Shown here: piece by piece, positions 204 through 18,659 of the stretch
How positions within the stretch are numbered: the stretch's first letter is position 1
Layout of the letters: each line of letters opens with the position of its first letter
Source of the DNA: a bacterium
GTDB taxonomy: Bacteria; Patescibacteriota; Gracilibacteria; BD1-5; JAGOOR01
Reading direction: 5' to 3'
Assembly: GCA_031973055.1 (NCBI GenBank)
Contig: DALYDS010000002.1
Coordinates: 1-36,980 of the forward strand
DNA length: 36,980 bases
Position numbers and translations under genes: made by a program
The notes under the pieces: model-generated
Databases searched by the model: none
Told to the model about the DNA's origin: nothing
What the model saw: only the letters and a program-made list of their open reading frames with translations

Positions 204-1277
204 ATGAAGAAACTCCTCCTCTCCTCCTTCCTGGCAACAAGCATGTTTGCTTTTGCTTACACGCAAGTTGATATAGAAAATGCGAATTATCTCTCGGGCA
301 AAAGTATCATCAAAGCTCAATCATCTGCCACCAAATACCGTCTCGATGATACAATTACACGTGCAGAGGTAATAGGAATTGCTATGAAAATGAAATGAGA
401 AAATCTCCCCAAGGATTATACTTGCAAAAAGTATTTCACTGATGTAGTAAAAAATGATTGGATATGCAGAGCTGTGGAACTAGGAGCTAAGGCGGGTATT
501 GTCTCTCGGGAAAATGCTAGATTCCGTCCACTAGATCCTATTACAAGAGTAGAAGCATTAGCAATACTGATGAATTCTATGGGTACACGATGAGAAGAAA
601 CAGTCATTTCTCCCTTTCCATTCACCGATGTAAAAAAATGAACCTGGGAAGAAAAGTGGATATCAAGAGCTTACACTCTCAATATAATTACAGAAGCACC
701 TTGTGATTCATCTTGAGACGCAAGAACATGTTCTGGAGTATCATTTGGTCAATTTAGACCCACTAGTAATGCTACCAGGGCTGAGTTATTTGAGTTTGCA
801 AAAAATACTTATACATATGGTGTAAGTATTGGACTAGTGTGAAACCCTGAAAGCGCCTTTTTGAGTTATTCATACAGCTATACAACGGATGAAAACTATG
901 TTTACAAGAATAATAACATTGTCCCCAATATTGACCCTTCATCTTTCAGGATTAATTTAAAAGATTTCATAGAAGATAAAGATGGTGTTTATAAATATGA
1001 CGCCACTTCAAATATGGCTTATAAAGTTACATGAATTGACAAAGAAAGTATGAAAATATTAAACTACAATTATATCAAAGATGCTTACAATGTTTACCTC
1101 TGTACAAACTATGATGAAGCCTATGAATGTAGAATATTGCCAAATATAGATGTTGCCTCATTTTCCTGCTATGATCTAGAAAAGTACGGAAATCTTTGCA
1201 AAGATAATTATCATCAATATGACCTGGCCGGAAAAGAACAAAATATCGATTCTGAGATTTGGCCAAATAACCTATAA
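204..1277 (+). CDS. Secreted SLH-domain surface protein with a DKNYY-like C-terminal region
   Basis: Track ORFs 204..398 and 1050..1277 share one frame. The interval between them has no TAA/TAG, only in-frame TGA at 396, 591, 639, 714, 840 and 1032. The N-terminus is a signal peptide (MKKLLLSSFLATSMFAFA). Three SLH-like repeats are present (ITRAEVIGIAMKM; FTDVVKNDWICRAVE...FRPLDPITRVEALAIL; FRPTSNATRAELFEFAKN). The C-terminus has D-K-N/D-x-Y-Y-like repeats. Confidence 0.7.
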
Positions 1278-1983: not shown

Positions 1984-2571
1984 ATGAAAAAAACCCTTTT
2001 TATTATCCTCGCGATAATCGTCGTCGGTGCTCTCTGGGCTGTCGGACAATATAACTCACTGGTCTCTGGTCGTGCTGGAGTTGATCGTGCATGGAGTGAT
2101 GTAGAGGTGGTTTATCAGCGTCGTGCAGATCTCGTACCTCAGCTCGTCGCAACAGTCGAAGGCGCAGCCAACTTTGAGAAAAAAACACTTACTGATGTAG
2201 TCGAAGCTCGTGCCAAAGCAACACAGGTCAAAGTCGATCCTACAAATGCTAATAGCATGGCACAATTTACGACATCACAAGGAGAACTCACAGGAGCACT
2301 GTCTCGTCTTCTCGTAACAGTAGAAGCCTATCCGACTCTTACAGCCACTCAAGGCTTCCGCGACCTCCAATCACAGCTCGAGGGATCAGAGAACCGCATC
2401 GCTAATGTCCGGTCTGACTATAATGGCGTGGCAAATACCTGGAACGTGACCGTTTCTCGCTTCCCAACAGTATTTATCGCTCGTCTCCTTGGTTTCGACA
2501 AGGCAGCTCTCTTCGATGCTCAACCTGGCTCAGAGAATGCTCCAAAAGTAGAGTTTAATTTGGACAAATAA
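1984..2571 (+). CDS. lemA: LemA family membrane protein
   Basis: An intact 195-aa ORF with an N-terminal TM helix followed by YNSLV...V..AWSDVEVVYQRRADLVPQLV..V....NFEKKTL..V..AR, which is typical of LemA. A TPM-domain gene follows, the usual LemA-TPM pairing. Confidence 0.85.
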   Translation: MKKTLFIILAIIVVGALWAVGQYNSLVSGRAGVDRAWSDVEVVYQRRADLVPQLVATVEGAANFEKKTLTDVVEARAKATQVKVDPTNANSMAQFTTSQGELTGALSRLLVTVEAYPTLTATQGFRDLQSQLEGSENRIANVRSDYNGVANTWNVTVSRFPTVFIARLLGFDKAALFDAQPGSENAPKVEFNLDK

Positions 2572-2600
2572 ACCTTCTAGCAAGAAAATAGAAATGGGTT

Positions 2601-2711
2601 TTTAGGGGCGAAACTGTCTGAGCGTCACGAAAACAGAAAAACAATTGCGGAATTGGAGAGCGAGTTTTTTGCCCCTAAATTGTTTTGGATACTTTTGCAA
2701 TCAAAAGTATC
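2601..2711. other. Structured intergenic element: a long-range inverted repeat plus a perfect 10-bp hairpin
   Basis: TTTAGGGGC (2601-2609) is complementary to GCCCCTAAA (2671-2679). GATACTTTTG-caat-CAAAAGTATC forms a perfect hairpin at 2688-2711. Neither is followed by a T-run. A local GC-rich CCGC-ctcc-GCGG mini-hairpin follows at about 2740-2751. Confidence 0.35.
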
Positions 2712-2774
2712 AAACGAATCAGCTAACTGGGCTTGATACCCGCCTCCGCGGTAATGACGAACAAGAAATCATTT

Positions 2775-3644
2775 ATGAAAAAAATCTTCCTCTTTGCTCT
2801 CTGCTCTCTGCTTTTTTCTTTCAAGGGAAGTTTTGCTGAATTCATAGTTCCCCCTCTCCCCTCTACTCCTGTCTATGATGAAGTTGTGCTTTTAAAGTCT
2901 GAAGAAAAAACAGCCCTCGAACAACAAATCCTCACACTCGAAAAAGAAACCAATCATCAAATTGGTATAGCAATTATCAAGAGCCTCCAAGGCCGAACGG
3001 TTGAAGAAGCCTGACTCGCAATCTTGAGAGGATGGTGAATCGGTCAAAAATGACTCGATAATGGCCTACTCATACTCCTCATGCCTGTCGGTTGAGTATG
3101 AGAAAGAGAGATGAGAATAGAGGTCTGAAAAGGGCTTGAGGGAGTGATAACAGACCTCATGTCCCGGAGAATTATCGATGAGAATTTCACCCCTCATTTC
3201 ATAGAAGGAAAGTATGGTGATGGTCTCGTTGAAGGCATCAATCGTATGGCGCCGCTTCTCAGGGGTGAAGTCGTCACTCTCCCAGAAAATAAAGTCTCTA
3301 ATATTGATGATATACAAGGTATTTTGATGATAGTTGCTGTCTTTGGATGGTGACTCTTGAGCGTCCTCTCTGCATCGAAATCATGGTGGCTAGGAGGAGT
3401 TTTCTGAGCAATAATCGGATTTTTTGTGATGTGAACAATAGGAGTTTTTTTAATTGGGATTTTCGGGCTCATTCTCGATTTTTTTCTTTCAAAATATGCT
3501 TACGGGAGAATCCCCTTTCTCAGAAGCATGGGTAATAACCGTTGGTGAGGGGGTGGATGATTCGGGTGAGGCGGCTCTAGTGGTGGCTGGGGTGGTTTCT
3601 GATGAGGAAGTGGCTGGGGTGGATGATCGAGTGGTAAATGGTAA
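2775..3644 (+). CDS. TPM-domain (YgcG-like) membrane protein with a Gly-rich C-terminal tail
   Basis: Track ORFs 2733..3014 and 3144..3353 plus short pieces share one frame through to TAA at 3642-3644. It carries 16 in-frame TGA. The protein has a signal peptide (MKKIFLFALCSLLFSF), then LEQQILTLEKETNHQIGIAIIKSLQG..VEEA[G]LAILRGW[G]IGQK[G]LDNGLLILLMPVG..REMRIEV[G]KGLEGVITD, two TM helices, and the tail W[G]GGG[G]FG[G]GGSSGGWGGF[G][G]GSGWGG[G]SSGKW. An alternative start is possible at 2754 or 2733. Confidence 0.85.
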
Positions 3645-3679
3645 ATTAGATATTTAGGATTTACCACTATAATTTCTCT

Positions 3680-4084
3680 ATGAAAAAAATAATACCCTAC
3701 GCAAGTATTTTGACAGTATTTTCTCCTGTTACTTTTGCAGATTGGAAAATCATAAATTGTCCAAATGGTAACTGTCTCAGAGCATGAGTGGATGCAATAA
3801 AACAGTACATAGCCAATGCCGGTCTCATAGCTGATAAGCCTCTCTCGATAGCAATACAAGATATTATTCAATATTTCCTCTCATTTTTGAGTTTGATTGC
3901 TGTTATCTACATCATGTGGGCAGGCGCGCAGATGCTGCTTTTTCCAGCAAATGAAAACTCCAGTGAAAAAACCAAAAAAATTATTATATCAGTCATTGTC
4001 GGATTAACCCTTATCTGGTTTGCATGGTGGATAGTGAATTCACTCTTTTTTGTTCTCGGAGGGTCATGAGTGTCTACAAATTAG
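3680..4084 (+). CDS. Small two-TM pilin-like membrane protein (TrbC/VirB2-like architecture)
   Basis: ATG at 3680, one TGA at 3785-3787, a second at 4067-4069, and TAG at 4082-4084. It has a signal peptide, a Cys pair (NCPNGNC), TM1 (FLSFLSLIAVIYIMWAGAQML), a short polar loop (PANENSSEKTKK) and TM2 (IIISVIVGLTLIWFAWWIV). This layout matches the pilin-like small proteins common in CPR and Gram-positive conjugative elements. TATAAT at 3668-3673 lies only 6 nt from the ATG, so the mRNA may be leaderless. Confidence 0.55.
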
Positions 4085-4560
4085 TATTTGATAATTAGTA
4101 ATCATATTTGTCAATACTCTTCCCTATACAAAGAGTGCGTCAGAACTTTGAATTCTCATGAACAATCTGGTACGATGGTCGTATATAACTCATGAAAAAG
4201 GCAATTCTCATCATATTTCTCTCGCTCACAGCATTCGTTTGTTTCGATGCCTTAGCCCAAAACTGGTCATTTAGCTGTAGCGGAAACAATTGTTTCAAGG
4301 CAGGCGTAGATTACGCTGGGAACACTATTGGTAAGAGTTCTGGTATTATCACTGGTAAGTGAATTGCAGAAGCTGTACAGGACGTTATCATCTATTTTTT
4401 GGGATTTCTCGCACTTATCTCTGTTATCTACATCATGTGGGCAGGTGCACAGATGCTCCTCTTCCCATCTGATGAGGAATCAAGCGAAAAAACCAAAAAA
4501 ATTATTATATCAGTCATTGTCGGACTTTTTGTGATATTCTTCGCATGGTGGATAGTGAAT
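3901..4560 (+). repeat. Direct duplication of the pilin-like module (3901-4039 versus 4422-4560)
   Basis: The two copies align without gaps at an offset of 521 nt. I counted 24 mismatches in 139 nt (about 83% identity). One 39-nt run is identical: 3965-4003 equals 4486-4524 (gaaaaaaccaaaaaaattattatatcagtcattgtcgga). Confidence 0.85.
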
Positions 4561-7500
4561 TTCATATTCAAAATACTCAATAATAAAGCGGCTCTCTCAG
4601 ATACGTGGATACCCCGAGCAGTAGCAGAGACACAAATTCGTGAAGTAGATTTCACGACCTACAGTAATCGCATACAGGCACTCAAGACAAAACTCTCCAC
4701 GTACAGCCCAGACATTACTCGCGAACTCTCTATCCTCGTCGATGGCGCATTTGATCACCTCCCTGACAGAGGTGATATGTACGTCAATCAGCAATACTAT
4801 GATAAAGTAAAGGCACAGATAACAAACTACGATCTCCATCACGACAGTATCGATCTCGGGACGCTCAACAATGCTCTCGATAAATTCTTACAACAGAGTA
4901 AAACATTTACGATTGAAGGACAAGTATCAGCAGCGCCTCGTACAGGTGACGCACCTCTCTCTGTAACATTGGAAGCAAAAGGCATGAAAGACGGAAGTGG
5001 TACACTCATACCAGACACAAACTATATATGGTGGGTACGGGTACCTGAAGGATCCAAAATTATTGGACGAGGGAAAACTATCAACTATATATTTCAGGAT
5101 GAGGGAACCTACACCGTCAATCTGACAGTAAACTCTGCGAGTAAAAATAGCAAAGGATTCCGTGATGTTATCAACTTCGAAGACAGTGTCACAATAGAAG
5201 TAGGACAACCAAAAGTAAAATTTGTGGTCTTTTTCAATGATCAACTCGCTACTGATAATGTGAAATTGTCATCACGAGAATCAGAACAAAAGGTTATCAT
5301 CGATGCCTCTCATACCAAATTTTCTTCTGGCTATACTATCAAAAAAACAGAATGGGACTTCGGTAATGGTAAAACAGATACTGTCGATGGAGCTCCTCTC
5401 ATCAAAACACAAGACTACAAAGAAGGAGAATACATCGTGAAATTAAAACTGACACGAAACGATGATGAAGTATTTACCAAAAATATTATTCTCAAAGTGG
5501 GTGATCCTATTGCCTCAATTTTTGCGAGCAAGCTCCAGCCAGACAAGGGTGAAAAGGTGACTTTTCAAGCTAAGAAGGTAAGCCAGGATGGTGTATCATA
5601 CGCTTGGGAAATCAGAAAAATAGGCTCAAATAGCCTCCTCGCCACAGCAACCGGTCCACGCATGGAATATGCATTCCTCGATGTAGGACGTTATTCTGTT
5701 GATCTCATATCTTCGAAGAGGGATATACGCGACAAAGAAAGCATAGAAATCCTCATCGATTCTCAGGTGCCAGTCGTACGATTCGATGCACAAGTCGAGA
5801 GTTCTGAGACTCCAAATATCTATCTATTCGATGGAACAGCCAGCTACGATCCTGACTATCCTGATGATCAGACTATGAAATATGAGTGGTTCATCAATGA
5901 CAAGCCTGTTCAATTAGTCGACACCAACTCGAGCAATAGTCGTGGAAATTATATTTTCCCAGAAAAAGGCACATACCAAATCGAGCTTCATGTCACTGAT
6001 AAAGAAGGTAAACAATGAATATTTAAGAAGACAATCAGTATCAAAAATCTCCTCTCTATTCAACTCAATATACGACCTCAGGTCGTCAAGCGTGGTGAAC
6101 GTGTACTCCTCTCTGCGACAGCACCAAATGCCGAAACATTTGAATGGAATATAGCAGGTAAGGAACAGGTCATACAAGAAACTGGTAAACTCATCACCTC
6201 GTTCGATAAATCAGGGACCTACCCAATGACCATAAAAGTAACAGATACAAATGGCGACACAAACATGCTCAAACGCAAAATCTATGTCGTTAATGGTGAA
6301 GAACCATTTGCCATCATGAATGTCACATCCAAGAGTCTCCTCTCAGGATACGAGCAAAATGCTTGTGAAGGACAAGAAGCACTCATTGCTGATCGTGTCT
6401 CTCCGGTCTCATTTGTGGGAGATAAGAGCGTCAACGCTGGTGGCAAAACGAGTGATCTCACGTATTTCTGGAAAGTAGGCCTCAATAAAACCTCTACTCA
6501 GAAAAATCTCAGCCATACATTTGATGAGCTCGGATGTGAAAAAGTCACCCTCATGGTCTCAGATAAAAAAACTGGTGTGACACATACAACAGAAGAATGG
6601 ATAAAGGTCGTCAACGTACCTCCGAGATTTTCTGATATAGAAGTGTCTGTAGAAAATATAGATATGGACCCGATGAAGGTCAATCTCCGTATCCAGGGCG
6701 CAAAAGACCCTGATGGAGTTATCCGTTCTTATACATGGTATTATGCCACTAATCCAGATGGGGACGAACCTCTCGGATTTAGGATTACCACAAAACCAGA
6801 GACAAGTTTGGTATTACAAAAACTCACAGGACGATATTACTTTTTCGTCATCATGGAGGATTCCAATGGTATGAGAGTGGATACTCGGAGCTCTTCTGAG
6901 ATGAGATTCTCAACTCCAGACCTCCTCATCAACCAAAATCTCGCGATGCCAGTGATAGATTTCCGTGTGAGTAGCAACGAAGTAGCATATGGTGACGAAG
7001 TAACATTTGACGTGACAGTCGAAGACGTCTTCAAGAAAAACATAGCTGACGCTTCTGAGTTTCGTTGGGATGTCGATGGAGATGGATTCTATGATATCAA
7101 GACAACACAGCCAACATTTAAATACAAATATACCACTCCTGGAGAATACCATCCAAAAGTAAAAGTCACTCATCGAGGACTCTCGACAACCAAATCACTC
7201 AATATCAAAGTCGTCAATCGGCTCATACCTCAGATTGATCTCCAGATTATCTGAGAAAAAATCATAGCCTACAATACATCAACTGGTATATTTGAGAGTG
7301 TTGCATGGTTTGCTGATGATAAAAAAATCTCAGAAAATAAAGAATATCTCTACTACGATGCATCTGGTGGGACATTCCCAAAAACTCTCAAGATACAGAT
7401 ATCAGACGGTAAAAAAACAGAAGAAAAAATATTTAATATTGCAAAAAATACTCAGAACAAAGCTATCGTCGAACAAATAAAAAATCAACTCGTCGTCCTC

Positions 7501-9651
7501 ACAAATTCAGATGGCACCATTACAGAGGCATCCGATAATATCGTATGGACTGATGGAACAAAACCGCTCTTTATCTATCTCGGAGAATCTCAGGGCGATA
7601 TCAAATACTATATTATCGACACCGATGTCGACATAGACACTGATTTATCAGGGGGCAAGGATGACGATGCTGACAATAAATGAACAGCATCATACAGAAT
7701 AGGTAGACCATTTCAGGTACCAGCTGGGACACAGAGAGTGACAATTATGAAGATACGACTCCTCGGTGCCGATGGTGAAGAAATAGGGAAGTCTCGACAG
7801 ATGCGTGTCACTCGTGATTTCATAGCTCCTATCGAGATAGTACCTGTCGTGACTGATGATAAAACACCAAAAAAATACAATCTCACGGTCGAAGACAAAG
7901 CACGACTTGAGAAACTCAACGCTCTCGTCAAAACAATACCAGAAACAGAGAGAAAATTATTTACGAAGTATATAGATCAGCTCGGTGATATCTGGTATGA
8001 TAGAGCTGACAGAGCAGAGACACTCCTCCAATTCTCACAAGCACTCCAAGCAAACAAAAATATATCTCCTGATCTCAAAGAACGTCTCGAGACAGCTATA
8101 GAACTCGTCTATACACAAGGAGAACAAGACGTAGAACAAAAAATTCTCGCTCGAAAAATCATAGCCGATTTCCTCGCTAACAGCCCATTCAAAAAGCAGA
8201 TATTTGGAGACGGTAACAAGGTAGGAGCACTCGATGAAATCATCGATAATCCAGAATACTATGACAAAAATAAATCTCTCATTACCAAGATTTACGATGA
8301 GTATGTCTTCACTGATGCAAATATTTCTGAAGAAGGCAAAAAGGCAATCAAGGCAAATCTAGAAATCCTCATTGGTTCCGCACCTGATCCAACGACAAAA
8401 GACCCAACCAATCCAGACAATCCACCTGTTGATAATAATCCTGCAACATCGGTAAATTACATGGAATATGTTGATAAATATGGTCTCCTCGCTGGTGGTA
8501 TACTAGCTATTATTATAGGACTCTTGGTAGTATTGAGCTTATTCCGATGACGCTCAAGAGGCTCAGATTCATGAATTCCTGATTTTCCAAATGAACATAA
8601 TGAAAGCCCTGCTGAGCCTCAACACGGTCCAGGCTGGCTCCATGACGATCACGATACAGGAGTACACCAAGACGATTCCGCAACTACCTCAAGTGATGCA
8701 CCTGACTGGCTCAAAGAAGCCGGGTCACCATTTGGAGAAGAAGATGTATTAGCAAAAGAGTCTTCGATTTCTGATAAAAAAAGCGAAACCGTAGTAACCC
8801 CCACACCTACCACAACAAATAAAACCACTTCAGATATCCCTGATTGGCTCAATGATTCCCACGATGAGAAAACAACAACACCAGTACCAACACAAACTCA
8901 AACAAAAGAGACTCCAGCTCCAGTAACAACATCACAAAACGATATTCCTGACTGGCTCCATGAAGATAATAGCACACCAGCTCCTGCCGCAAATACCAAT
9001 CCTCAGAACTCTCCTGAACCAGCTCTTGCTACAGAAACACCAACATCAAATACAACAAAAGAAGATCTCCCAGACTGGCTCGCCGGAGCACATGAAGAAG
9101 AAACAAAAATGCCAGAACCAGTGGCAACGATAGAACAAACTCCAGAAACAACGTCAGTGAGTTCCCCTGAACCAACAGTGAATGAGATTTTTACACCTGA
9201 AACAAATACAACAGGACTCGCTCCAACAACAGCCACTCCAGTCTCTCTCGATCATGATGATATACCAGATTGGTTGCGAGGAGCAGAAGAAGCAACAGAG
9301 TCAACCGTAGAGGCTTGAAAGAGTGAAGACAAGAACGATAATGTTGTTATTCCTCCTGTGGATACATGACTCGCTACTCCCGATGACGTTCCAGAAAGTC
9401 CTCTCACAGAAAAGTCAGACGACATTCAGACAGGGACAATACCAAAAACGTCAAAAGGAAAATGGAAAAGTGATACTCACTGGAAAAAAGACACAGAAAA
9501 AGCTCCCACCACTAAAAAAACAAAAACCATGAAAGATAAAAAGGAAACAAAAAAAGTAGCACCCGGGCTTCTCTGACCAGCCGAACATATCATAGGTCCA
9601 ACACATGACACATTGCTATCAGAATGACAAAATACTTCAAAATCTGAATAA
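4192..9651 (+). CDS. Giant (1,819 aa) surface protein: N-terminal pilin-like two-TM module, PKD-repeat ectodomain, third TM helix, PDWL-repeat tail
   Basis: Track ORFs 4399..6018, 6226..7254, 7738..8550 and 9109..9318 are all in frame 1. I checked codon by codon that the gaps contain only TGA (4360, 6016, 7252, 7681, 8548, 8572, 9316, 9367, 9574, 9625) and no TAA/TAG. The stop is TAA at 9649-9651. The N-terminus has a signal peptide, a SFSCSGNNC Cys pair and the same two-TM module as 3680..4084. Several PKD-like units follow (WDFGNGKTD...GEYIVKLKL; YEWFINDKPV...GTYQIELHVTDKEG; FRWDVDGDGFYD...GEYHPKVKV). A TM helix YGLLAGGILAIIIGLLVVLSLF lies at about 8476-8541, followed by basic residues. Confidence 0.75.
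8629..9276 (+). repeat. Six copies of a (D/E)-(I/L)-P-D-W-L peptide repeat in the C-terminal tail of the giant protein
   Basis: The copies are PGWL 8629-8640, APDWL 8698-8712, DIPDWL 8833-8850, DIPDWL 8941-8958, DLPDWL 9064-9081 and DIPDWL 9259-9276. Thr/Pro/Glu-rich spacers of about 30-60 codons separate them. Each copy is followed by acidic or His residues (HDDHD, KEAG, NDSHDE, HEDN, AGAHEE, RGAEE). Confidence 0.8.
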
Positions 9652-9660
9652 TTACTCCTC

Positions 9661-12000
9661 ATGCCTACCTTCAAAAATAAAACTCCGCTCCCAACCAATA
9701 CTCCACCAGTAAAAAAGGTAGGATTCTTTGGGCGGATTTTGAATTTTGCAGCTAATGACGAAAACTACGTACCAGACATACGAGAAAAAACAGTAAAAGT
9801 GGCTGTAAAACCAGTGAGTTTATGGAAGAGAATCAAGGCTCTCCTGATTGTCCTCGTGACATTCTATCTCCTCTTGTGTGTTTACATCCTCCTCAATCCT
9901 CAATTCGCACAATTCTTTATACGGGTATTCAAAATCGATATCTTGGTTCTCCGAACTATTCTTGAATATACCATATATACTGTTTATAGCATTTTTGCCA
10001 TTGTCTTGGCCATTGGTCTGATATTTTTCTGGTACCGAGCGATGACCATCAAGACACACAAGAGAGGGAAACATCTCAGTATTACTCTTTTGGCGGGACT
10101 TTTTGGAATTCTTTTCTTCGGAAATATAGCACTTTTCGCCTGGACTTATAACTGGTTCTTACAAAATTTTCTCAATGACGATAGTAATATCGTTGTCTAT
10201 GATAATACATACCTCAAATATCTCGGTAAAAACCAAGATATCAGTAAGGCCATCATCAGTTCCAAGAAAAATATTGGTCCCATTCATGTTCGTTATGATC
10301 TAAACAGATACATAAGTAGGGAATCAATAAAAACAGGTCTTCGCTTAGACAGTCCTTACACATTTGAAATTGATTATGATGGTGACGCACGACCAGATCG
10401 ATGATCAGGAGATAGTAATGGCGTTGAAAATAGTATAGCCAGCGGTAAAGCCCCTATTATCACTCCCGATTTACCGTATAATAAGGTAGGCACCTATAAA
10501 CCAAAAGCCATAATAAAAGGCGTAAACACGATTGGTGCACCAATTACTGTCGAAATTGATATGCCCGAGATTAGTCTCGAAGGAATAGTCACTATCGATC
10601 GAACCAATCTCGATAATGGTGGGATCCAGTATTCTTTCAAAGCTGATCAGAATCTCACTTCTCGAGGACAACTTGAGTGGAGTATTCTCGGACGAGAAGG
10701 CTCAAATATTATTGACACACAATACTCGCCTGCGAGCATATTTACGACACCTACGATTATTTGTCTCAAAATATTTAATGGTATAGAACCAGATCCTGCA
10801 GCTCCTTGTGATTGGAGGTTTGTCACAGAAGAAAGTACAAAGAGCAATATTCAGAATCCCGATATAAAAACCAAGATAGACCCTATCAACCCCCTCAAAT
10901 ACCAGTTCATGGTCGAACCAACGACGCTCCAATGAGAAGTGAGATACGTACGATGGTATATCGATAGTGAACTCTATGTGGGTAAATTTGATTCCGGAAC
11001 AGAAAAAATATTTGATTACAAATTTCACGATCCCGGCACTTATAGAATAGAAGCAGAAATAGAAGATAGTTTTGGAAATATCGTCCGTATCGGTCGTGAT
11101 CCTGTTTTCACCGCCGAGCTCGTGGATCTCAAAGAAGGATATAAACTCCAAATCGCTGATGAAAACAACGTCGATGTTTCAAAAAACACCTACGATAAAA
11201 AAACAATGTCCTATCTTCTCCCTGATTTTCCAGTACCTTGAACGCTCTCATTTGATGCGACAGGAATTAGAGCAGATTCTCCTCGTCTGAGCCTCAAAAA
11301 AGTTGAATGGGATGGAGATGGGGATGGAGTATTTGAGACAGAATGACTCACATTCGAAAAAGATCTCCCAACACCAGGACGATATGATATACGGGCAAAA
11401 TATACCTTTACTGATATTTCTGTTGATGGAAAAGATATACCAATTATCCATATAGACAAAATCGCTGTTGTCGGAATTCAAAAATCACTCGATGTTCGCG
11501 TGAAAATAATTCCTGAAAGCTCATATGCACCAACATCTGTTCGATTTGATGCCTCTGATTCCAAGACACTCAAAGGAGATATCCGTAAATTTATCTATGA
11601 TTTTGGCGACGGTAACAAACACGAAGGGGAGGGTATCGTCACCACCTACAAATACAAAAATCCCGGTGAGTACAAAATCACTGTCACAGCCGTCACAAAT
11701 AAAGGAGAAAAAGCATCACGAACCTACACGCTTATTCTCAAAAAACCACAAGAAACAGTCGATATACAACCGAGTATAGCTTCTGGTCTCGGGGAAGCAG
11801 AATTACCAATCACTTTCTCAGCAAAAATCCAAGGGATTGAAAATATAATTACCTGGAACTTTGGGGACGGAACAGATATTGCACATGGTCGGGATGTCGT
11901 GCACGTATTCAGAACTGGAGGCACCTATACTATCAACGTCAAAGTTGAGTACGCTTCTGGTATAGAAGAATCCGATACTATCACATACATCGTAAAATAA
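9661..12000 (+). CDS. Membrane-anchored PKD-domain protein (779 aa)
   Basis: Track ORFs 9661..10404, 10561..10935, 10939..11241 and 11500..12000 are all in frame 1. They are joined only by TGA (10402, 10933, 11239, 11344), and the stop is TAA at 11998-12000. Three N-terminal TM helices are followed by PKD-like units (VEWDGDGDGVFE...GRYDIRAKY; FIYDFGDGNKHEG...GEYKITVTAV; ITWNFGDGTDIAHG...GTYTINVKV). The gene starts 9 nt after the giant gene. Confidence 0.75.
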
Positions 12001-12004
12001 GCCT

Positions 12005-13099
12005 ATGAATTTCACCGATATATTTCACTTTTTACAAACGTATCAAGTACCATTAGGTATTATCAGCACAGGTGCTCTGATCTATTGTACGATTATCAAA
12101 TTCCTCGGAAAAATACCTCTCGTCCAAGTATTAACGATGTTTTTTACCGGTATTATTGTGATAACCTGTATTTTTCTGCCGTTCAATTGGTCTATTCAAA
12201 ATTCTGGAACGGGGAGAGAGGTCTCGCTCTTTTTCTTTGAAATCAATGTCGAAGGAAATAACTTTATCGCCATCCTCAAAAATCTCCTCTCAAAAAATGA
12301 ATACATCCCTATTATTGAATGATATTTTTCTCGATATAACGAAGGTGGTGCGAGTCTCCCGACAGATATCATTACCGTTTTTCTCGCATTTCTGGAGGAA
12401 TTTTCAAAGCTTGGACTCCTCATTCTCGCAATTCGTAAATCGCTTCGACTGCCTATCATGATCATATATCTCTTTCTTGTCTACGGACTCATACACAAAA
12501 TGGGAGGCATTGCATCTCTCTCGAGTAGCACTCTCGGAGGGCTCACTGTAGCAGGAATAATAGTCGGCGCAATCTTATGGTACATGCTCAGTGCTCCGTT
12601 GCGTACAGTGAGCGTTGCTGATTATATCTACAGCATTGCTCTCGTGGCCGCTGGTTTTGCCTTTGCAGAAAATATCAAATATATGATAGAAATAAGTGCC
12701 GCCTCTCATGGTGATATTCAGGCTATCAAAGAAAATGCTATTCTCCGTTCAGTTTTTGGATACCTCTCACATATATTTTTTAGTATGGTCTGTGTATCTC
12801 TCTACGCACGTGGCAGATTCGCATTTCTCCGTTATATTGATCAATCAGGGAATCTCTCATTTACTCAGAAAGCTCTCTGATGGAAAGGTTTTACTCAACT
12901 CAAAACCATTCAAGGCTTTTGGGCTGGTGTTATCTGCGCTTCTCTTATTCACGGTGTCTACAATATAATGATTGGTACAGGCAACATTATGATACCATCT
13001 GTCATTCTCATTATCGGTTTTCTCTTCCTCGAGCTCTTTGTGCTCCATGATTTGCGCAATAATACGAAATACGGGAATCTAGAAATATACATGAAATAA
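12005..13099 (+). CDS. PrsW-family intramembrane metalloprotease
   Basis: Track ORFs 12005..12322 and 12458..12880 plus a tail to TAA at 13097-13099 share one frame, with TGA at 12320 and 12878. The protein is polytopic and carries the PrsW motifs EEFSKLG (EExxK), GFAFAENIKY (FxxxEN), SHIFFS and IHGVYN (HGxY-D/N). It starts 4 nt after the upstream stop. Confidence 0.65.
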
Positions 13100-13105
13100 A
13101 ATCTC

Positions 13106-13133
13106 TTGATTTATAAATTAGCACCTATATAAT
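13106..13133 (+). promoter_or_regulatory. Putative sigma-70-type promoter of clpB
   Basis: TTGATT (13106-13111), a 16-nt spacer, then TATAAT (13128-13133). This lies 36 nt upstream of the clpB ATG. The -10 box sits inside the spacer of the CIRCE-like inverted repeat. Confidence 0.45.
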
Positions 13134-13144
13134 GTAGGTGCTAA
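13118..13144 (+). promoter_or_regulatory. CIRCE-like inverted repeat (candidate HrcA operator); it could also act as a terminator for the upstream gene
   Basis: TTAGCACCT-N9-AGGTGCTAA is a perfect 9-N9-9 inverted repeat. The CIRCE consensus is TTAGCACTC-N9-GAGTGCTAA, so 7 of 9 positions match in each arm. TTTT follows at 13145-13148, which also makes it a plausible rho-independent terminator for 12005..13099. Confidence 0.55.
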
Positions 13145-13168
13145 TTTTATATTTTATCACCTTAGAAT

Positions 13169-15787
13169 ATGAATCAAAACTACACCATGGCAGCCCAAGA
13201 AAGGCTACACGAATCAGTCCAGCTCGCTCAGAGCTCTGGACATACAACGATAGAACCTCTTCACTTGCTTCGAAGCATCTTGCATGCTTCTGAGAGTATT
13301 AATCAATCACTCATCGAGCGCGCTGGGGGGAATATTCAAGCGCTCAAATCCGATGTCGACAATGCCCTGTCGAAGTTGGCGAAGGTCAGTGAAAATACAT
13401 CAGAACCATGAGCTTCTCAGGAGTTAGCGAAGGTTCTCCAAAGTTCTGAGAAAGCCATGAAAACAATGGGGGATAGTTACACTACCGAGGAACATCTGAT
13501 GATAGGACTCCTCGAATCAGCGAAATCACTTGAGGTACTATTCAAGACAGCAGGAATCACACTGAAGAACTATGAAGAAGCTGTCAAAAAACTCCGCAAT
13601 GGTAAGAAGGTCACTTCAAATACTGCCGAAAATCTCTACGAGTCTCTCAAGAAATACACCATAGATCTCATCGACCAAGCAAAGAAAGGGAAGATAGATC
13701 CCGTTATCGGACGTGATGATGAAATCCGTCGAGCCATCCAAATCCTGGCTCGTCGAAGCAAAAATAATCCTGTCCTGATTGGCGATCCAGGTGTCGGTAA
13801 AACTGCTATTGTCGAAGGTATAGCCATAAGAATAATCAGTGGCGAAGTCCCCGATGCACTCTTGTCGAAGAAAATTCTCACGCTCGATCTCGGAGCTATG
13901 ATTGCTGGAGCGAAGTATCGTGGCGAATTCGAGGAACGATTGAAGTCTGTCATCGATGAAGTTGAAAAATCTGATGGCGAAATCATCCTCTTTATCGACG
14001 AAATCCATACCATTGTTGGTGCTGGCGCGAGTGAAGGATCGACAGATGCTGGCAATCTCCTGAAGCCCGCTCTTGCCCGTGGCCGCATCAAGGTCATCGG
14101 CGCAACGACGATTAATGAATACAGAAAATACATCGAAAAAGATGCTGCGCTCGAACGACGTTTTCAAACCGTCATGGTCGACGAACCAAATCGAGAAGAT
14201 GCGCTGACGATTCTCCGTGGCATCAAGGACAAGTACGAAACCTTTCATGCCATAAAGATTACTGACTCTGCGCTCGTCGCCGCAGTCGATATGTCGACAC
14301 GGTATTTACCGGATCGTAAACTCCCGGATAAGGCCATTGACCTCATCGACGAAGCTGCCTCAGCTCTGAAAATTGGCTCCACCAGTAAACCGGCTGAGAT
14401 AGACACGATAGACAAAAAAATTCACTCCCTCCAAATCGAGCGAGAAGCTCTTCTGCGTGAGCAAAAAGACAGACCAGAAGAGGGAAACAAGACACGCATT
14501 GTCGACATAGAAAAAGAACTCGCGAACCTCCAAGAAGAGCAGAAAAAACTCCATGCGGCCTACGAAGATGAGAAGAAAATGATGCAGGATCTGAAGAAAA
14601 TCCGTGAGGATCGAGAGAAGCTCATGCTCCAAGCAGAACAACTCGAACGAGATGCTGACTATGCAGCTGTCGCTGAAATCAGATACAAGAAACTCCCTTC
14701 CCTCGACACAGAACAAAAAAAGCTCGAATCTATCGCTGAGGCACGTCGACAAGATGGCCGGAGTTTCTTCCGAGACACAGTCGACATCGAAGATATTGCT
14801 GGGGTTATTTCTCGCTGGTCAGGAGTACCGGTCGGCAAACTTATCCAAACCGAGAATGACAAATATCTCAATCTCTTCGAACACTTAGAGGAATCTGTGA
14901 AGTGACAAAACCACGCTCTTAAGTCTGTGGCAGAAGCCGTCCAGCGTTCAAAGGCAGGACTCTCAGACAAGAATCGTCCAATTGGAAGCTTTCTCTTCCT
15001 CGGACCGACAGGTGTCGGTAAAACTGAAACAGCAAAAGCCCTCGCCAGTGCTCTCTTCGATCATAGTGGTGCCTTTATCAGAATCGACATGAGTGAGTAT
15101 GGTGAATCACATTCTGTCGCTCGTCTCATCGGCTCTCCTCCAGGATATATCGGACATGACGAAGGTGGACAACTCACGGAAGCCGTCCGTAGAAAACCCT
15201 TTTCAGTATTGCTCTTCGACGAGGTAGAAAAAGCTCATCCTGATGTCTACAATGTCTTTCTCCAGATTCTCGACGACGGTCGACTCACGGATGGAAAAGG
15301 TCGAACGGTCGACTTCCGAAATACCATTATCATCATGACCAGCAATATCGGTTCTGAGAAGATTATGGATTTCTTTAGTGCGGAAAAAGGTGGACACAAT
15401 GTTGATGATATTCAGATGAAGGCATTGAATGATATGATGATAGAACAACTCCGAAACTACCTCCGTCCTGAACTCATCAATCGTATCGACGACATCATCG
15501 TCTATCGACCTCTTGGCGACGAAGTCCTCCGCTCTATCATCGACCTCGAATTGGCGAAGGTGTCTACTATGCTCGCTGAAAAAGATATCACCGTCACTTG
15601 GGACAAATCCGTCCATGACTACCTCATGAAACATGGCATCGATCCTCAGTTCGGCGCTCGACCTCTCCGCCGTGCAATCACAAAATACATTGTGAATGCT
15701 CTGTCGACAAAACTCCTCGATGGAAGTCTCGAGGAAGGAAGTACAGTCAAGGTGAAGTTTGAAGGAGAGAAAATTAATATTCAATAG
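13169..15787 (+). CDS. clpB: ATP-dependent chaperone ClpB (872 aa)
   Basis: Track ORFs 13169..13411, 13457..14905 and 14927..15787 share one frame, joined by TGA at 13409 and 14903. Both AAA+ modules are present ([27 protein letters not shown]; [24 protein letters not shown]), along with the coiled-coil M-domain. The TGA at 14903 is the conserved Gly of the V-x-G-Q motif. Confidence 0.95.
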
Positions 15788-18479: not shown

Positions 18480-18604
18480 ACTTTACTATTAAAATAAATA
18501 TTTATAAAGAATTATGAGAGTATAGATAAGAAATATCTTTGTCTAGAGAATTATCAAACATTATTGAGGGAAGTCTCGCTTCCATAAAAACACTTAAGTA
18601 ATTT

Positions 18605-18642
18605 TTGACAAACACAATTTTATACTACAATCACAATTGTAG
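18605..18642 (+). promoter_or_regulatory. Possible promoter with an overlapping 7-bp inverted repeat in a divergent intergenic region
   Basis: TTGACA (18605-18610), a 15-nt spacer, then TACAAT (18626-18631). CTACAAT-caca-ATTGTAG (18625-18642) overlaps the -10 box. A second TATAAT lies at 18651-18656, just before the ATG at 18660. Confidence 0.3.
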
Positions 18643-18659
18643 CCTTTTAATATAATATT

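What the first reader, a model, noticed from the sequence alone, without database searches (positions are those of the whole stretch)
3680..13099. Candidate surface apparatus: pilin-like module, 1,819-aa pilin-fused PKD protein, TM-PKD partner and PrsW protease in one apparent operon
Four co-directional genes have tiny spacers: 107 nt between the first two, then 9 nt and 4 nt. They encode:
- a standalone VirB2/TrbC-like two-TM 'pilin'
- a giant protein with the same module at its N-terminus, followed by about 1,290 aa of PKD-type repeats, a third TM helix and a tail of about 365 aa
- a three-TM protein with a PKD ectodomain
- a PrsW-type intramembrane protease

If the pilin module has VirB2-type topology, the giant PKD region is extracellular and tethered to the membrane at both ends. 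That is an unusual arrangement. The window contains no VirB4, VirD4, relaxase or other type IV secretion component, so this is not a conventional conjugation locus. My inference is that the pilin-like fold has been co-opted as an anchor or polymerisation module for an adhesin, possibly for host-cell attachment in an episymbiotic or predatory CPR lifestyle. The adjacent PrsW protease is a candidate to release or process the TM-anchored partners.
Basis: partly seen in the sequence, partly recalled or inferred. Interest (0 to 1): 0.85.

Follow-up and report, generated by a model that had tools for sequence, protein, structure and literature searches.

The report
Pilin-anchored giant adhesin of Gracilibacteria
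A class of ultra-small, host-dependent bacteria encodes a conserved giant surface protein whose front end is a conjugation-type pilin membrane hairpin, always paired with a second membrane-anchored partner protein; this is a candidate for the host-contact adhesin that has not yet been found for these bacteria, although the link to a secretion machine is unproven.

Summary
With UGA read as glycine (code 25), four co-directional genes sit at exactly the stated coordinates. They encode a 134-aa pilin (g1), a 1,819-aa pilin–PKD giant (g2), a 779-aa three-TM PKD protein (g3) and a PrsW-type protease (g4). A strong terminator follows g4, and the window has no type IV secretion (T4SS) genes.

Both pilin modules pass Pfam's T4SS_pilin threshold. 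That family is remotely related to true VirB2/TrbC pilins (hhalign score 35.8 against 11±2 for shuffles). Structure searches could not discriminate.

- The conserved core is g2+g3, not all four genes. Up to 201 stretches in species-representative genomes (Gracilibacteria/Peribacteria labels) encode a relative. A standard-code lineage also places the pair next to tandem-pilin genes.
- PrsW is confined to one clade, and g1 to a sub-clade.
- One clade lost the hairpin and g3 together.
- The hairpin is conserved (62–78% identity), while g2's C-terminal TM helix is not (17%), so it is more than an anchor.
- The cytoplasmic tail carries 3–8 conserved PDWL motifs resembling the FtsZ C-terminal peptide.

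No T4SS gene recurs nearby, so T4SS coupling rests on homology and three genomes. Verdict: a new variant of known kinds, moderately high interest.

The parts
3680..4084 (+). g1: standalone VirB2-superfamily pilin (134 aa). It has a signal peptide (aa 1-20, ...TFA|D), a Cys-x5-Cys loop and a TM hairpin (aa 55-128). It is a paralogue of the g2 N-terminus.
   Evidence: PF18895 scores 36.0 bits against a cutoff of 26.6. It is 63% identical to g2 residues 26-129. The AF2 model has pLDDT 73.6 with helices 32-46, 55-87 and 92-130. The TPM-g1-g2 order recurs in L090/L091 and L092 but is absent from most relatives.
4192..9651 (+). g2: 1,819-aa giant. Its order is signal peptide, pilin hairpin, ~1,300-aa ectodomain, TM3 and a disordered cytoplasmic tail.
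   Evidence: ORF call under code 25. Pfam finds PF18895 and PKD families. Full-length orthologues share 47-62% identity, and more distant members 25-38%. Up to 201 stretches in GTDB species-representative genomes encode a relative.
4360..4581 (+). g2 pilin hairpin (aa 57-130): TM1, charged loop (PSDEESSEKTKK) and TM2. The core MWAGAQMLLFP..E.S.EKTKKII.SV is invariant.
   Evidence: Identity across 11 orthologues is 0.62 (TM1), 0.78 (loop) and 0.64 (TM2), against 0.17 for TM3 of the same protein. hhalign against the diverse pilin profile gives 100% probability.
4582..8469 (+). g2 ectodomain (aa 131-1426): helical linker, PKD/Ig-like repeats, Asp-rich segment and a helical membrane-proximal region.
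   Evidence: PKD_4, PKD, PKD_3 and K319L-like_PKD hits. Mean identity is about 0.60.
7612..7716 (+). Asp-rich segment (about aa 1141-1175, YYIIDTDVDIDTDLSGGKDDDADNKGTASY...). It lies in the most conserved 30-aa window of the whole protein and is probably a Ca2+-binding site (inference).
   Evidence: The sliding window starting at aa 1141 has 0.84 identity. Y, D, D, D, D, L, G, D, D, N, T and S are invariant even in members at 28-30% identity.
8470..8556 (+). g2 TM3 (aa 1427-1455), followed by RGRSRG. It is a plain, poorly conserved single-pass anchor.
   Evidence: Hydropathy. Identity is 0.17. It is present in all three clades.
8620..9282 (+). The stretch of the cytoplasmic tail that carries six P-x-W-L motifs (GPGWL, APDWL, 3x IPDWL, LPDWL).
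   Evidence: Every family member has 3-8 copies although the tail is only about 21% identical. The consensus from 284 instances is [DE][DE][DE]-[IVL]-P-D-W-L-K-G.
9661..12000 (+). g3: 779-aa partner with an N-terminal cytoplasmic segment, three TM helices (aa 54-162) and a PKD-containing ectodomain.
   Evidence: Pfam PKD_4/PKD. It lies immediately downstream of every hairpin-bearing g2 (27 of 28 loci) and is absent where the hairpin is absent (16 of 17). Its TM region is 0.52-0.62 identical in group A. A protein with the same topology follows the giant in the standard-code locus L012.
12005..13099 (+). g4: PrsW-type intramembrane metalloprotease (364 aa), probably active. It is associated with the pair only in the window's clade.
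   Evidence: PF13367 scores 39.7 bits against a cutoff of 23.5. E131-E132-x-x-K135, F218...E222, H256 and H316...N320 are invariant in 14 orthologues. A local g4 HMM finds it in the group A loci whose sequence extends far enough downstream and in no group B or C locus.
13115..13147 (+). Intrinsic-terminator-like hairpin (15-bp stem, T-rich tail) that ends the transcription unit after g4.
   Evidence: It is the strongest terminator-like site in 2500-13400. There is no comparable + strand site between g1, g2, g3 and g4.

Best explanation
g2 and g3 form a conserved envelope complex of Gracilibacteria whose job is contact with another cell or surface.

**Proposed mechanism**
1. g2 is exported by Sec and its signal peptide is cut.
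2. Its VirB2-superfamily hairpin inserts with the N-terminus out, the charged loop in and the C-terminus out.
3. About 1,300 aa of PKD/Ig-like stalk lies outside the cell.
4. A plain TM helix returns the chain to the cytoplasm.
5. A disordered acidic tail there displays several PDWL motifs to a cytoplasmic partner.

**Role of the hairpin.** The hairpin is not just a second anchor. It is a specific intramembrane assembly module that joins the giant to g3, to free VirB2-like pilins (g1 where present, polypilins in L012) and possibly to the dispersed, non-conjugative T4SS of these bacteria. On this reading g2 would serve as the adhesin for that T4SS.

**Role of PrsW.** In the window's clade, PrsW (g4) is an added, lineage-specific processing or quality-control step.

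**Shown:** the architecture, family membership, conservation pattern, synteny and the joint loss.

**Inferred:** adhesion, the hairpin-g3-pilin interaction, T4SS docking, the tail partner and the PrsW substrate.
For: **Family membership**
- PF18895 is above cutoff in g1 and g2.
- The g2 hairpin matches a 37-member pilin profile at 100% probability.
- That profile matches eight annotated VirB2/TrbC proteins at score 35.8. All controls scored 10-16.

**The hairpin is constrained beyond anchoring**
- Identity is 0.62-0.78 in the hairpin against 0.17 for TM3 in the same protein.

**g2+g3 is the conserved unit**
- Among loci with a complete 5' end and at least 3 kb downstream, the counts are: hairpin and g3 together 27, hairpin alone 1, g3 alone 1, neither 16.
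- The one 'g3 alone' locus (L085) has the hairpin as a separate 183-aa ORF just upstream.
- A standard-code lineage (L012) has two tri-module polypilins, then a hairpin-PKD giant, then a 3-TM PKD protein.

**g1/g2 co-variation.** Three hairpin positions share a state within a genome and differ between genomes.

**VirB4 co-occurrence** (Table S1 of PMC12102498)
- Two hairpin+g3 genomes are listed as having VirB4.
- The complete genome with the hairpin-less form is listed as lacking it.

**Literature.** VirB2-like pilins are widespread in Patescibacteria, and that study detected no PrgB-like adhesin in its genome set.

**Tail.** PDWL motifs are kept in number and sequence although the tail is about 21% identical. 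The same repeat occurs in an unrelated zinc-ribbon protein.

**Operon.** Spacers of 9 and 4 nt, and a terminator only after g4.
Against: - No T4SS gene lies in the window or recurs within ±10 kb in any of 76 related loci. The group B neighbours are a solute-binding protein, a prepilin peptidase, a type-IV-pilin-like protein and an M23 peptidase.
- The hairpin-less proteins form one clade. The hairpin/g3 association is therefore essentially a single joint loss, and the Fisher p of 4e-10 overstates it.
- That clade shows the giant protein can function without the hairpin.
- The VirB4 correlation rests on three genomes.
- Two Foldseek searches and one PDB profile search did not retrieve any VirB2-type pilin.
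- TM hairpins give spurious hits at E~1e-4: a GPCR in the PDB search and bacteriorhodopsin in 16 of 37 family members.
- g3's TM region matches the pilin profile only weakly (25.5 against a shuffle maximum of 22.5; 13% probability).
- There is no expression, localisation or binding data.
Confidence: 0.5

Rival explanations
1. Envelope scaffold with no pilin or T4SS function. On this view g2 and g3 are structural surface-coat or cell-envelope proteins. The VirB2-like hairpin has simply been recruited as a stable double-pass membrane anchor or homo-oligomerisation element, and it is unconnected to pilins or secretion.
For: - No T4SS genes lie near the pair in any of 76 loci.
- In group A the neighbours are envelope proteins: SLH, LemA and a TPM-domain protein.
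- Group C does without the hairpin.
- PF18895 hairpins are often concatenated 2-8 times in one polypeptide. That suits an integral-membrane oligomer at least as well as an extruded pilus.
Against: - The hairpin is far more conserved than g2's own plain anchor (0.62-0.78 against 0.17).
- The hairpin and g3 were lost together.
- In L012 the pair sits directly beside two polypilin genes.
- g1 co-varies with the g2 hairpin.
- The three mappable genomes fit VirB4 co-occurrence.
Confidence: 0.27
2. One reading: a releasable pilus adhesin. g1 is the major pilin and g2 a minor pilin carrying an adhesin. PrsW (g4) cuts g2 (and g3) near their TM anchors, so the pilin-adhesin can be extracted from the membrane and polymerised into an extracellular filament.
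For: - Both proteins carry a pilin module.
- g1 and g2 are adjacent and co-vary.
- g4 keeps all its catalytic residues and is translationally coupled to g3 by a 4-nt spacer.
- In VirB2-type pilins the C-terminus faces the outside of the filament, so a C-terminal passenger domain is topologically possible (own knowledge).
Against: - PrsW accompanies the pair only in group A.
- g1 is present only in a sub-clade. No standalone pilin lies beside g2 in the 76 other loci.
- TM3 and the PDWL tail are universal and motif-conserved. That argues the tether and tail work while attached rather than being discarded.
- No assembly ATPase lies nearby.
Confidence: 0.12
3. An ordinary conjugative or mobile-element T4SS locus whose other components lie just outside the window.
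For: Only the name of the Pfam family, plus a sub-threshold NCBIfam hit of g1 to a Mollicute ICE pilin-like protein (19.5 bits against a cutoff of 40).
Against: - The flanks are housekeeping genes in conserved synteny across many species: S6-SSB-S18, NusB, RNase III, HrcA, SLH, LemA and TPM upstream, and ClpB, RadA and UvrB downstream.
- No relaxase, VirB4, VirD4 or integrase lies next to group A loci.
- ClpB is 89-96% identical in the first relatives examined (82-96% over all related loci), showing vertical inheritance.
Confidence: 0.01

Closest known systems
VirB2-like pilins of the Patescibacteria T4SS (Pfam PF18895 T4SS_pilin / PF04956 TrbC; pilin arrays of Southlakia epibionticum and TM7x; PMC12102498, PMC12857230)
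   Same: - The same Pfam family.
- The same build: signal peptide, Cys pair, two TM helices and a short charged loop.
- g1 is a typical member.
- Paralogous copies sit side by side.
   Different: - g2 carries about 1,690 aa after the hairpin, including a third TM helix and a cytoplasmic tail.
- Published arrays consist of separate small genes, usually near virB4. Here there is no T4SS gene within 10 kb.
- I found no description of a pilin-adhesin fusion in the searched literature.
Surface adhesins of Gram-positive (MPF-FATA) conjugation systems, such as PrgB of pCF10
   Same: The proposed role is the same: a large repetitive surface protein that makes cell-cell contact for a monoderm T4SS. PMC12102498 reports that no PrgB-like adhesin was detected in Patescibacteria, so that role is unfilled.
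   Different: - There is no sequence relationship.
- PrgB is wall-anchored (LPXTG; own knowledge) and encoded within the T4SS operon. g2 is membrane-anchored at both ends through a pilin hairpin and a TM helix, and it is encoded apart from any T4SS genes.
Two-domain adhesin-pilins of other pilus systems (e.g. FimH/PapG of chaperone-usher pili; own knowledge)
   Same: The logic is the same: a pilin-type assembly module fused to a receptor-binding module in one polypeptide.
   Different: - The fold and assembly pathway are unrelated.
- Those adhesins are soluble periplasmic intermediates without a C-terminal TM helix or cytoplasmic tail.
Giant PKD-containing membrane proteins of predatory code-25 CPR bacteria (Vampirococcus lugosii; PMC8080830)
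   Same: They are very large predicted membrane proteins with PKD domains, proposed to mediate recognition of and attachment to the host.
   Different: That paper mentions no pilin hairpin, no g3-type partner and no tail motif. Whether the Vampirococcus proteins belong to this family was not tested here.
PrsW site-1 protease of Bacillus subtilis (cleaves the anti-sigma factor RsiW; own knowledge)
   Same: g4 passes the Pfam PrsW threshold and keeps the EExxK, FxxxE, H and HxxxN signatures. It sits beside single-pass and multi-pass membrane proteins that could be its substrates.
   Different: - There is no sigma/anti-sigma pair nearby.
- The association with g2/g3 is limited to one clade.
- The substrate is unknown.
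FtsZ C-terminal peptide (E. coli DYLDIPAFLRKQAD; binds FtsA, ZipA, MinC, ZapD, ClpX and SlmA; PMC4117426)
   Same: The g2 tail motif [DE][DE]-[IVL]-P-D-W-L-K matches D-I-P-A-F-L-R at the I, P, aromatic, L and basic positions. These include the two residues (I374, L378) reported as critical for partner binding. Both motifs sit in disordered acidic regions.
   Different: - It is repeated 3-8 times in a membrane protein's tail instead of occurring once at the end of FtsZ.
- It has D and W where FtsZ has A and F.
- The similarity is a pattern only. Binding is untested and the Gracilibacteria FtsZ tail was not examined.

Membership tests
Pfam PF18895 T4SS_pilin | Profile HMM score above the curated gathering threshold | tested here: met
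   g1 scores 36.0 bits and g2 34.8 bits against a cutoff of 26.6. A local HMM built from 37 diverse members gives g1 E 1.4e-41 and g2 E 5.1e-36, and hits no other window ORF.
Pfam PF18895 T4SS_pilin | Signal peptide, then two hydrophobic helices joined by a short charged loop; a small standalone protein | tested here: met
   This holds for g1 (134 aa). For g2 the module is intact, but the protein is 1,819 aa, so the 'small standalone' part is not met. Of the family representatives re-scanned, 93 of 148 have 2-8 modules, and 9 have a single module followed by more than 150 aa of extension.
Pfam PF18895 T4SS_pilin | Encoded next to virB4 or other T4SS genes (true for 1,135 of 1,948 Patescibacteria assemblies, PMC12102498) | tested here: not met
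   There are none in the window and none recurrent within ±10 kb in 76 loci. The same paper notes that T4SS genes are generally dispersed in Gracilibacteria.
TrbC/VirB2 pilins (Pfam PF04956) | Profile HMM score above the gathering threshold | tested here: not met
   g1 scores 21.3 bits against a cutoff of 27.9, and g2 has no hit. 22 of 37 diverse family members hit TrbC (best E 3e-8), but 16 of 37 also hit bacteriorhodopsin spuriously.
TrbC/VirB2 pilins (Pfam PF04956) | Remote homology by profile-profile comparison, above controls | tested here: met
   The pilin profile against eight annotated VirB2/TrbC proteins scores 35.8 (73.5% probability, E 3e-5) over 63 columns in register. Controls: global shuffles 10.5±2.0 (max 15.9), layout-preserving shuffles 11.3±1.9 (max 16.2), reversed 12.9, AtpE 10.9. 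The g2 hairpin on its own against VirB2 gives only 24.2 (17%).
TrbC/VirB2 pilins (Pfam PF04956) | Fold similarity to solved conjugative pilins | tested here: inconclusive
   The AF2 models are helical hairpins (pLDDT 61.9 and 73.6). Foldseek against the PDB gave no hit with E below 2.6, only generic helical proteins. The fold is too simple to discriminate.
TrbC/VirB2 pilins (Pfam PF04956) | Polymerises into an extracellular pilus with the help of a T4SS | not testable with these tools
   This needs microscopy or biochemistry.
Conjugative / T4SS gene cluster | VirB4 ATPase, coupling protein and relaxase in the locus | tested here: not met
   Pfam and NCBIfam scans of all sizeable window ORFs found none of these. 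Synteny with housekeeping genes is conserved across species.
PrsW intramembrane protease (Pfam PF13367) | HMM above threshold, and catalytic EExxK / FxxxE / H / HxxxN residues present | tested here: met
   39.7 bits against a cutoff of 23.5. E131, E132, K135, E222, H256, H316 and N320 are invariant in 14 orthologues. The assignment of these motifs is from my own knowledge.
PrsW intramembrane protease (Pfam PF13367) | Cleaves a neighbouring membrane protein (here g2 or g3) | not testable with these tools
   g4 co-occurs with g2/g3 only in group A. This argues against a general role.
PKD-domain surface proteins | Multiple PKD/Ig-like domains on the extracytoplasmic side | tested here: met
   g2 PKD_4 1.9e-38 and PKD 7.6e-32; g3 PKD_4 5.6e-29. 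The extracellular location follows from the predicted topology (inference).
FtsZ C-terminal-peptide-like motifs | D-[IV]-P-x-[FW]-L-[RK] pattern in a disordered cytoplasmic region that binds FtsA/ZipA/SepF-type partners | tested here: inconclusive
   The pattern is present in 3-8 copies per protein (284 instances), and the FtsZ sequence was confirmed from PMC4117426. Binding was not tested, and the organism's own FtsZ was not available.

The most novel reading that the evidence does not exclude
The g2/g3 pair may be an integrin-like 'outside-in' connector of ultra-small bacteria. Its VirB2-type hairpin would plug a giant host-contact adhesin directly into the membrane platform of the non-conjugative Patescibacterial T4SS; that T4SS has been shown to be essential only in the Saccharibacterium Southlakia epibionticum. 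This would supply the adhesin that has not been found for these systems. Its cytoplasmic tail would be a multivalent mimic of the FtsZ C-terminal peptide that recruits FtsA/SepF-type proteins. Attachment to the host would then be physically coupled to the cell's division or cytoskeletal machinery.
Probability: 0.1. Interest if true: 0.9.

Novelty: new variant of a known kind. Interest (0 to 1): 0.62.

Why it matters
**Background.** Patescibacteria/CPR make up a large share of bacterial diversity and live attached to other cells. The one genetic study to date found the T4SS and its VirB2-like pilins essential for that lifestyle. Nobody knows what those pilins do in a single-membrane cell, and no T4SS-associated adhesin has been found (PMC12102498, PMC12857230).

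**What this finding adds.** A VirB2-type hairpin is covalently fused to a ~1,300-aa PKD ectodomain in a protein that is conserved across Gracilibacteria and always paired with a 3-TM PKD partner. This gives a concrete candidate for that role. It also provides a natural experiment: one clade lost the hairpin and the partner together, and the only complete genome of that clade that I could map lacks VirB4.

**Why it would matter if the link holds.**
- It would show how a conjugative-pilin module was reused as an assembly handle for an adhesin.
- The conserved PDWL tail motifs point to a cytoplasmic partner that could be identified.

**If the link fails.** The family is still a class-wide marker surface protein, useful for host-range and attachment studies.

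Tried and rejected
1. **Structure route.** I made two AF2 models of g1 (pLDDT 61.9 and 73.6) and ran two Foldseek searches against the PDB. They returned only generic helical hits with E above 2.6. The fold is too simple, so I dropped this as a test.
2. **PDB sequence-profile search with 37 pilins.** It returned only GPCR TM5-loop-TM6 hits at E 3e-4. I used this as a warning that E~1e-4 is unreliable for TM hairpins.
3. **Is g3's TM2-loop-TM3 a cryptic pilin hairpin?** The hhalign score was 25.5 against a shuffle maximum of 22.5 (13% probability), and there was no signal against the g2 hairpin directly (16.3). This is left as inconclusive.
4. **Gene conversion between g1 and g2.** The identical-codon fraction is 0.55-0.57 within genomes and 0.29-0.50 between them, and three residues co-vary. 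This is suggestive, but it rests on only two genomes.
5. **T4SS genes among recurrent neighbours of groups B and C.** None were found. Type IV pilus genes (a prepilin peptidase and a pilin-like protein) turned up instead.
6. **Fisher test of hairpin against g3.** p = 4e-10, but the NJ tree shows a single loss, so I do not use it as independent evidence.
7. **PrsW as a general partner.** Rejected, because a local HMM finds it only in group A.
8. **The DZR-annotated neighbour in L006 as a carrier of PDWL motifs.** It has none.
9. **Mapping more genomes to the VirB4 table of PMC12102498.** Only three could be matched by name.
10. **The 891-aa reverse-strand ORF as a hidden T4SS ATPase.** It has no Pfam or NCBIfam match and is not conserved in syntenic relatives.
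11. **Exact-sequence lookup with my code-25 translation of g1.** I worked around this with P0001.

Full report

Yes. Under the standard bacterial code the region breaks into short ORFs. Reading UGA as a sense codon raises the summed ORF length of the window from 9.3k to 24.9k aa and yields a single 1,819-aa ORF. In UvrB, RadA and ClpB the UGA codons sit on glycines that are invariant in those families (SATPG, EGFLRS, LGGG, with the motifs from my own knowledge). The code is therefore 25 (UGA = Gly).

The four + strand genes are g1 3680-4084 (134 aa), g2 4192-9651 (1,819 aa), g3 9661-12000 (779 aa) and g4 12005-13099 (364 aa). Their spacers are 107, 9 and 4 nt. Pfam confirms every domain call:

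- T4SS_pilin (PF18895) scores 36.0 bits in g1 and 34.8 bits in g2, against a cutoff of 26.6.
- Several PKD families match g2 and g3.
- PrsW-protease scores 39.7 bits in g4, against a cutoff of 23.5.

Hydropathy gives g2 a signal peptide, a two-helix hairpin (58-92, 100-130), a third TM helix (1427-1455) and a 364-aa tail. It gives g3 three TM helices. g1 is 63% identical to g2 residues 26-129. A strong terminator-like hairpin lies at 13115-13147, just after g4, with nothing comparable between the four genes.

The rest of the window is ordinary chromosome. It encodes two SLH proteins, LemA and a TPM-domain protein upstream. Downstream are ClpB, a TSP3-repeat protein, a ~30-TM protein, Lnb_N, Vut_1, RadA, HIT, GtrA, UvrB, an S41 peptidase, a ComF-like protein and UvrA. 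There is no VirB4, VirB6, VirD4 or relaxase.

**2. Is the module really a VirB2-type pilin?**

Membership of PF18895 is solid. The link from that family to classical VirB2/TrbC needed care. g1's TrbC hit is below threshold (21.3 against 27.9). A profile of 37 diverse family members searched against PDB sequences returned only GPCR TM5-loop-TM6 segments at E 3e-4. Sixteen of the 37 members also hit bacteriorhodopsin. Such E-values are therefore not trustworthy for TM hairpins.

I fetched eight annotated VirB2/TrbC proteins that lie between virB1 and virB3 on conjugative plasmids. I then ran hhalign with controls:

| Comparison with the pilin profile | Score |
|---|---|
| VirB2/TrbC alignment (73.5% probability, 63 columns in register) | 35.8 |
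| Column-shuffled VirB2 | 10.5±2.0 (max 15.9) |
| Layout-preserving shuffled VirB2 | 11.3±1.9 (max 16.2) |
| Reversed VirB2 | 12.9 |
| ATP-synthase c subunit | 10.9 |
| g2's own TM3 region | 18.2 |

The g2 hairpin matches the pilin profile at 100% probability. The relationship is thus real but remote. Structure prediction gave the expected helical hairpin (pLDDT 73.6), but Foldseek could not discriminate.

**3. What is conserved?**

The close database hits to g1 were mostly table-11-truncated N-termini of g2 orthologues. Full-length g2 orthologues of 1,650-1,820 aa exist at 47-62% identity, with distant members at 25-38%.

A scan of GTDB species-representative genomes found up to 201 stretches that encode a relative. 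The 76 loci kept carry Gracilibacteria, Peribacteria, Patescibacteria or unclassified-bacterium labels, and three of them are complete chromosomes of 1.05-1.34 Mb. After I re-annotated all loci under code 25, three groups appeared:

- **Group A** (48-66% identity to g2; the window belongs here) has SLH-LemA-TPM-g2-g3-g4, usually followed by ClpB. In the first relatives examined ClpB is 89-96% identical (82-96% over all related loci), while g2, g3 and g4 are 52-62% identical (43-66% over all group A loci). These surface genes therefore evolve fast.
- **Group B** (~30% identity) has a hairpin-bearing g2 followed directly by g3, but no PrsW within 10 kb.
- **Group C** (~30% identity) has a g2-like protein with only a signal peptide at its N-terminus and no g3.

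Among loci with a complete 5' end and at least 3 kb of downstream sequence, the counts are: hairpin and g3 together 27, hairpin alone 1, g3 alone 1, neither 16. The single 'g3 alone' locus (L085) has the hairpin as a separate 183-aa ORF just upstream of a giant that has its own signal peptide. An NJ tree of the ectodomains shows group C as one clade. The association therefore reflects essentially one joint loss, and the Fisher p of 4e-10 should not be read as independent support.

g1 lies between TPM and g2 only in the window's lineage and in two others (L090/L091 and L092). A locus that uses the standard code (L012) has the same parts list beside SecE-NusG-L11-L1. It carries two proteins each made of three tandem pilin modules, then a 2,518-aa protein (signal peptide, hairpin, PKD repeats, C-terminal TM), then a 755-aa protein with g3's topology.

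**4. Anatomy that bears on mechanism**

- *The hairpin.* Across 11 orthologues, identity to the window's g2 is 0.62 (TM1), 0.78 (loop) and 0.64 (TM2). The PKD region is at 0.60, TM3 at only 0.17 and the tail at 0.21. TM3 shows what a plain anchor looks like in this protein, and the hairpin is constrained far beyond that.
- *g3.* Its TM region is also conserved in group A (0.52-0.62).
- *An Asp-rich segment.* The most conserved 30-aa window of g2 starts at residue 1141, in an Asp-rich segment (0.84 identity). It is invariant even in members at 28-30% identity and is probably a Ca2+ site (inference).
- *The tail.* It is disordered and acidic, yet every member of groups A, B and C keeps 3-8 copies of a motif. 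The consensus over 284 instances is [DE][DE][DE]-[IVL]-P-D-W-L-K-G. No other protein in any locus carries two or more copies.
- *The motif elsewhere.* The same repeat occurs seven times in an unrelated double-zinc-ribbon protein (P0188). It is therefore a wider class of cytoplasmic short linear motif.
- *Resemblance to FtsZ.* The motif resembles the FtsZ C-terminal peptide DYLDIPAFLRKQAD at the I, P, aromatic, L and basic positions. These include I374 and L378, which are needed for FtsA, ZipA and MinC binding (PMC4117426). This is a lead and has not been tested.
- *g1/g2 co-variation.* At three hairpin positions g1 and g2 share the same residue within a genome and differ between genomes. Identical codons are also somewhat more frequent within genomes (0.55-0.57 against 0.29-0.50). 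This suggests gene conversion or co-adaptation, but only two genomes are available.
- *g4.* It keeps E131-E132-x-x-K135, F218...E222, H256 and H316...N320 in all 14 orthologues, so it is probably an active protease.

**5. Link to a T4SS**

The published context is as follows:

- VirB2-like pilins occur in 1,948 Patescibacteria assemblies, often in arrays (PMC12102498).
- In Gracilibacteria the T4SS parts are generally not clustered with virB4 (PMC12102498).
- No PrgB-like adhesin was detected in that genome set (PMC12102498).
- A recent review calls these T4SSs unique among monoderm systems for their potential to make conjugative pili (PMC12857230).

In my data no T4SS gene recurs near g2 in any group. 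Group B's recurrent neighbours are a solute-binding protein, a prepilin peptidase, a type-IV-pilin-like protein, an M23 peptidase and MiaB. Group C's are SSB, signal peptidase S26 and TruB.

Three genomes could be matched to that paper's VirB4 table. CG2_30_37_12 and CG12_big_fil_rev_8_21_14_0_65_38_15 both have hairpin+g3 and are VirB4-positive. The complete genome 28_42_T64 has neither hairpin nor g3 and is VirB4-negative. This fits T4SS coupling, but it rests on three genomes.

**6. Best explanation and rivals**

I think the most likely reading (about 0.5) is this. g2 and g3 form a conserved cell-contact complex. The VirB2-type hairpin acts as a specific intramembrane assembly module that joins the giant to g3 and to free pilins, and possibly to the dispersed T4SS. 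The PKD stalk makes the external contact, and the PDWL tail engages a cytoplasmic partner. PrsW is a clade-specific addition.

The rivals are:

- **Envelope scaffold (0.27).** The hairpin would be only a stable anchor or oligomerisation element unrelated to pilins or secretion. This fits the missing T4SS neighbours, the envelope-protein neighbours and the hairpin-less clade. It does not explain the hairpin's conservation, the joint loss with g3, or the polypilin neighbours in L012.
It is weakened by the narrow distribution of PrsW and g1, and by the universal, motif-bearing TM3 and tail.
- **An ordinary conjugative element (0.01).** This is effectively refuted.

**7. Novelty**

VirB2-like pilins in Patescibacteria, giant PKD membrane proteins in code-25 predators (PMC8080830) and PrsW proteases are each known. 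In the searched literature I found no description of four things:

- the fusion of a VirB2-type hairpin to a giant ectodomain;
- its obligate 3-TM PKD partner;
- the conserved PDWL tail;
- the hairpin-less sister clade.

Databases label these proteins only 'PKD repeat protein' or 'Type IV secretion system pilin'. I rate this a new variant of a known kind, with interest 0.62. It gives the field a concrete and widely conserved candidate to test, but the functional claims are still inferences.

Noticed in passing
proteins P0036, P0049 and others; L012 8012-8851 and 8866-9828: Many PF18895 family members are 'polypilins', with 2-8 pilin hairpins fused in tandem in one polypeptide. Among the 148 representatives scanned, the counts by number of modules are 1:55, 2:12, 3:61, 4:9, 5:3, 6:5, 7:2 and 8:1. 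P0036 is a signal peptide followed by seven ~75-aa hairpins joined by 6-8 aa linkers. The T4SS survey I read reports only arrays of separate pilin genes. This is reminiscent of the fused c-subunit hairpins of rotary ATPases (own knowledge).
   Followed up: partly
P0188: An unrelated 329-aa double-zinc-ribbon protein (PF12773 DZR) from another organism carries seven [DE][DE]-x-P-[DE]-W-L repeats in an acidic disordered region. The PDWL repeat is therefore a wider short-linear-motif class with an unknown, presumably widely conserved, cytoplasmic partner.
   Followed up: partly
window 15804-19220: An 891-aa reverse-strand ORF (15804-18479) and a 186-aa ORF (18660-19220) have no Pfam or NCBIfam match and no counterpart in syntenic relatives. 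In those relatives ClpB is followed directly by TSP3/multi-TM, Lnb_N or Vut_1/RadA genes. This looks like a variable, lineage-specific insertion zone downstream of ClpB.
   Followed up: partly
window 19327-21183 and 21197-24313: The first ORF is a 618-aa protein made almost entirely of thrombospondin type-3 (Ca2+-binding) repeats, with a C-terminal TM helix. It is followed by a 1,038-aa protein with roughly 30 predicted TM helices (weak DUF2157 hit). The latter resembles the 'enigmatic' 990-aa, 32-TM protein reported for another Gracilibacterium (PMC6851277).
   Followed up: no
window 204-1277 and 1287-1961: Two tandem SLH-domain paralogues have nearly identical N-terminal ~120 aa (signal peptide plus SLH) and different C-terminal parts; one has a DKNYY domain. 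SLH-LemA-TPM precede g2 in all group A loci.
   Followed up: no
window 7612-7716 (g2 aa ~1141-1175): An Asp-rich segment (IDTDVDIDTDLSGGKDDDADNKGTASY) lies in the most conserved 30-aa window of the giant protein. It is invariant even at 28-30% overall identity and is probably a structural Ca2+-binding site near the membrane-proximal end of the stalk.
   Followed up: partly
group B loci, e.g. L065 3117-4091, L073 209-847: In the ~30%-identity clade, a prepilin peptidase (A24) and a protein with a type-IV-pilin-like N-terminus recur 2-5 kb from the g2-g3 pair (10-11 of 32 loci). A solute-binding protein sits immediately upstream of g2 in 21 of 32 loci. A link to type IV pili rather than to the T4SS cannot be excluded.
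   Followed up: partly
L085 9743-10294 and 10352-15364: A natural split version. The pilin hairpin is a separate 183-aa ORF that ends in TAA, 57 nt upstream of a 1,670-aa giant in the same reading frame. That giant has its own N-terminal hydrophobic segment, and g3 is retained. This could be a genuine gene split or a nonsense mutation or sequencing error.
   Followed up: partly
window 2733-3644 (TPM-domain protein): After its TM segments, the C-terminus is an extreme Gly/Trp-rich tail (GGGGGFGGGGSSGGWGGFGGGSGWGGGSSGKW).
   Followed up: no
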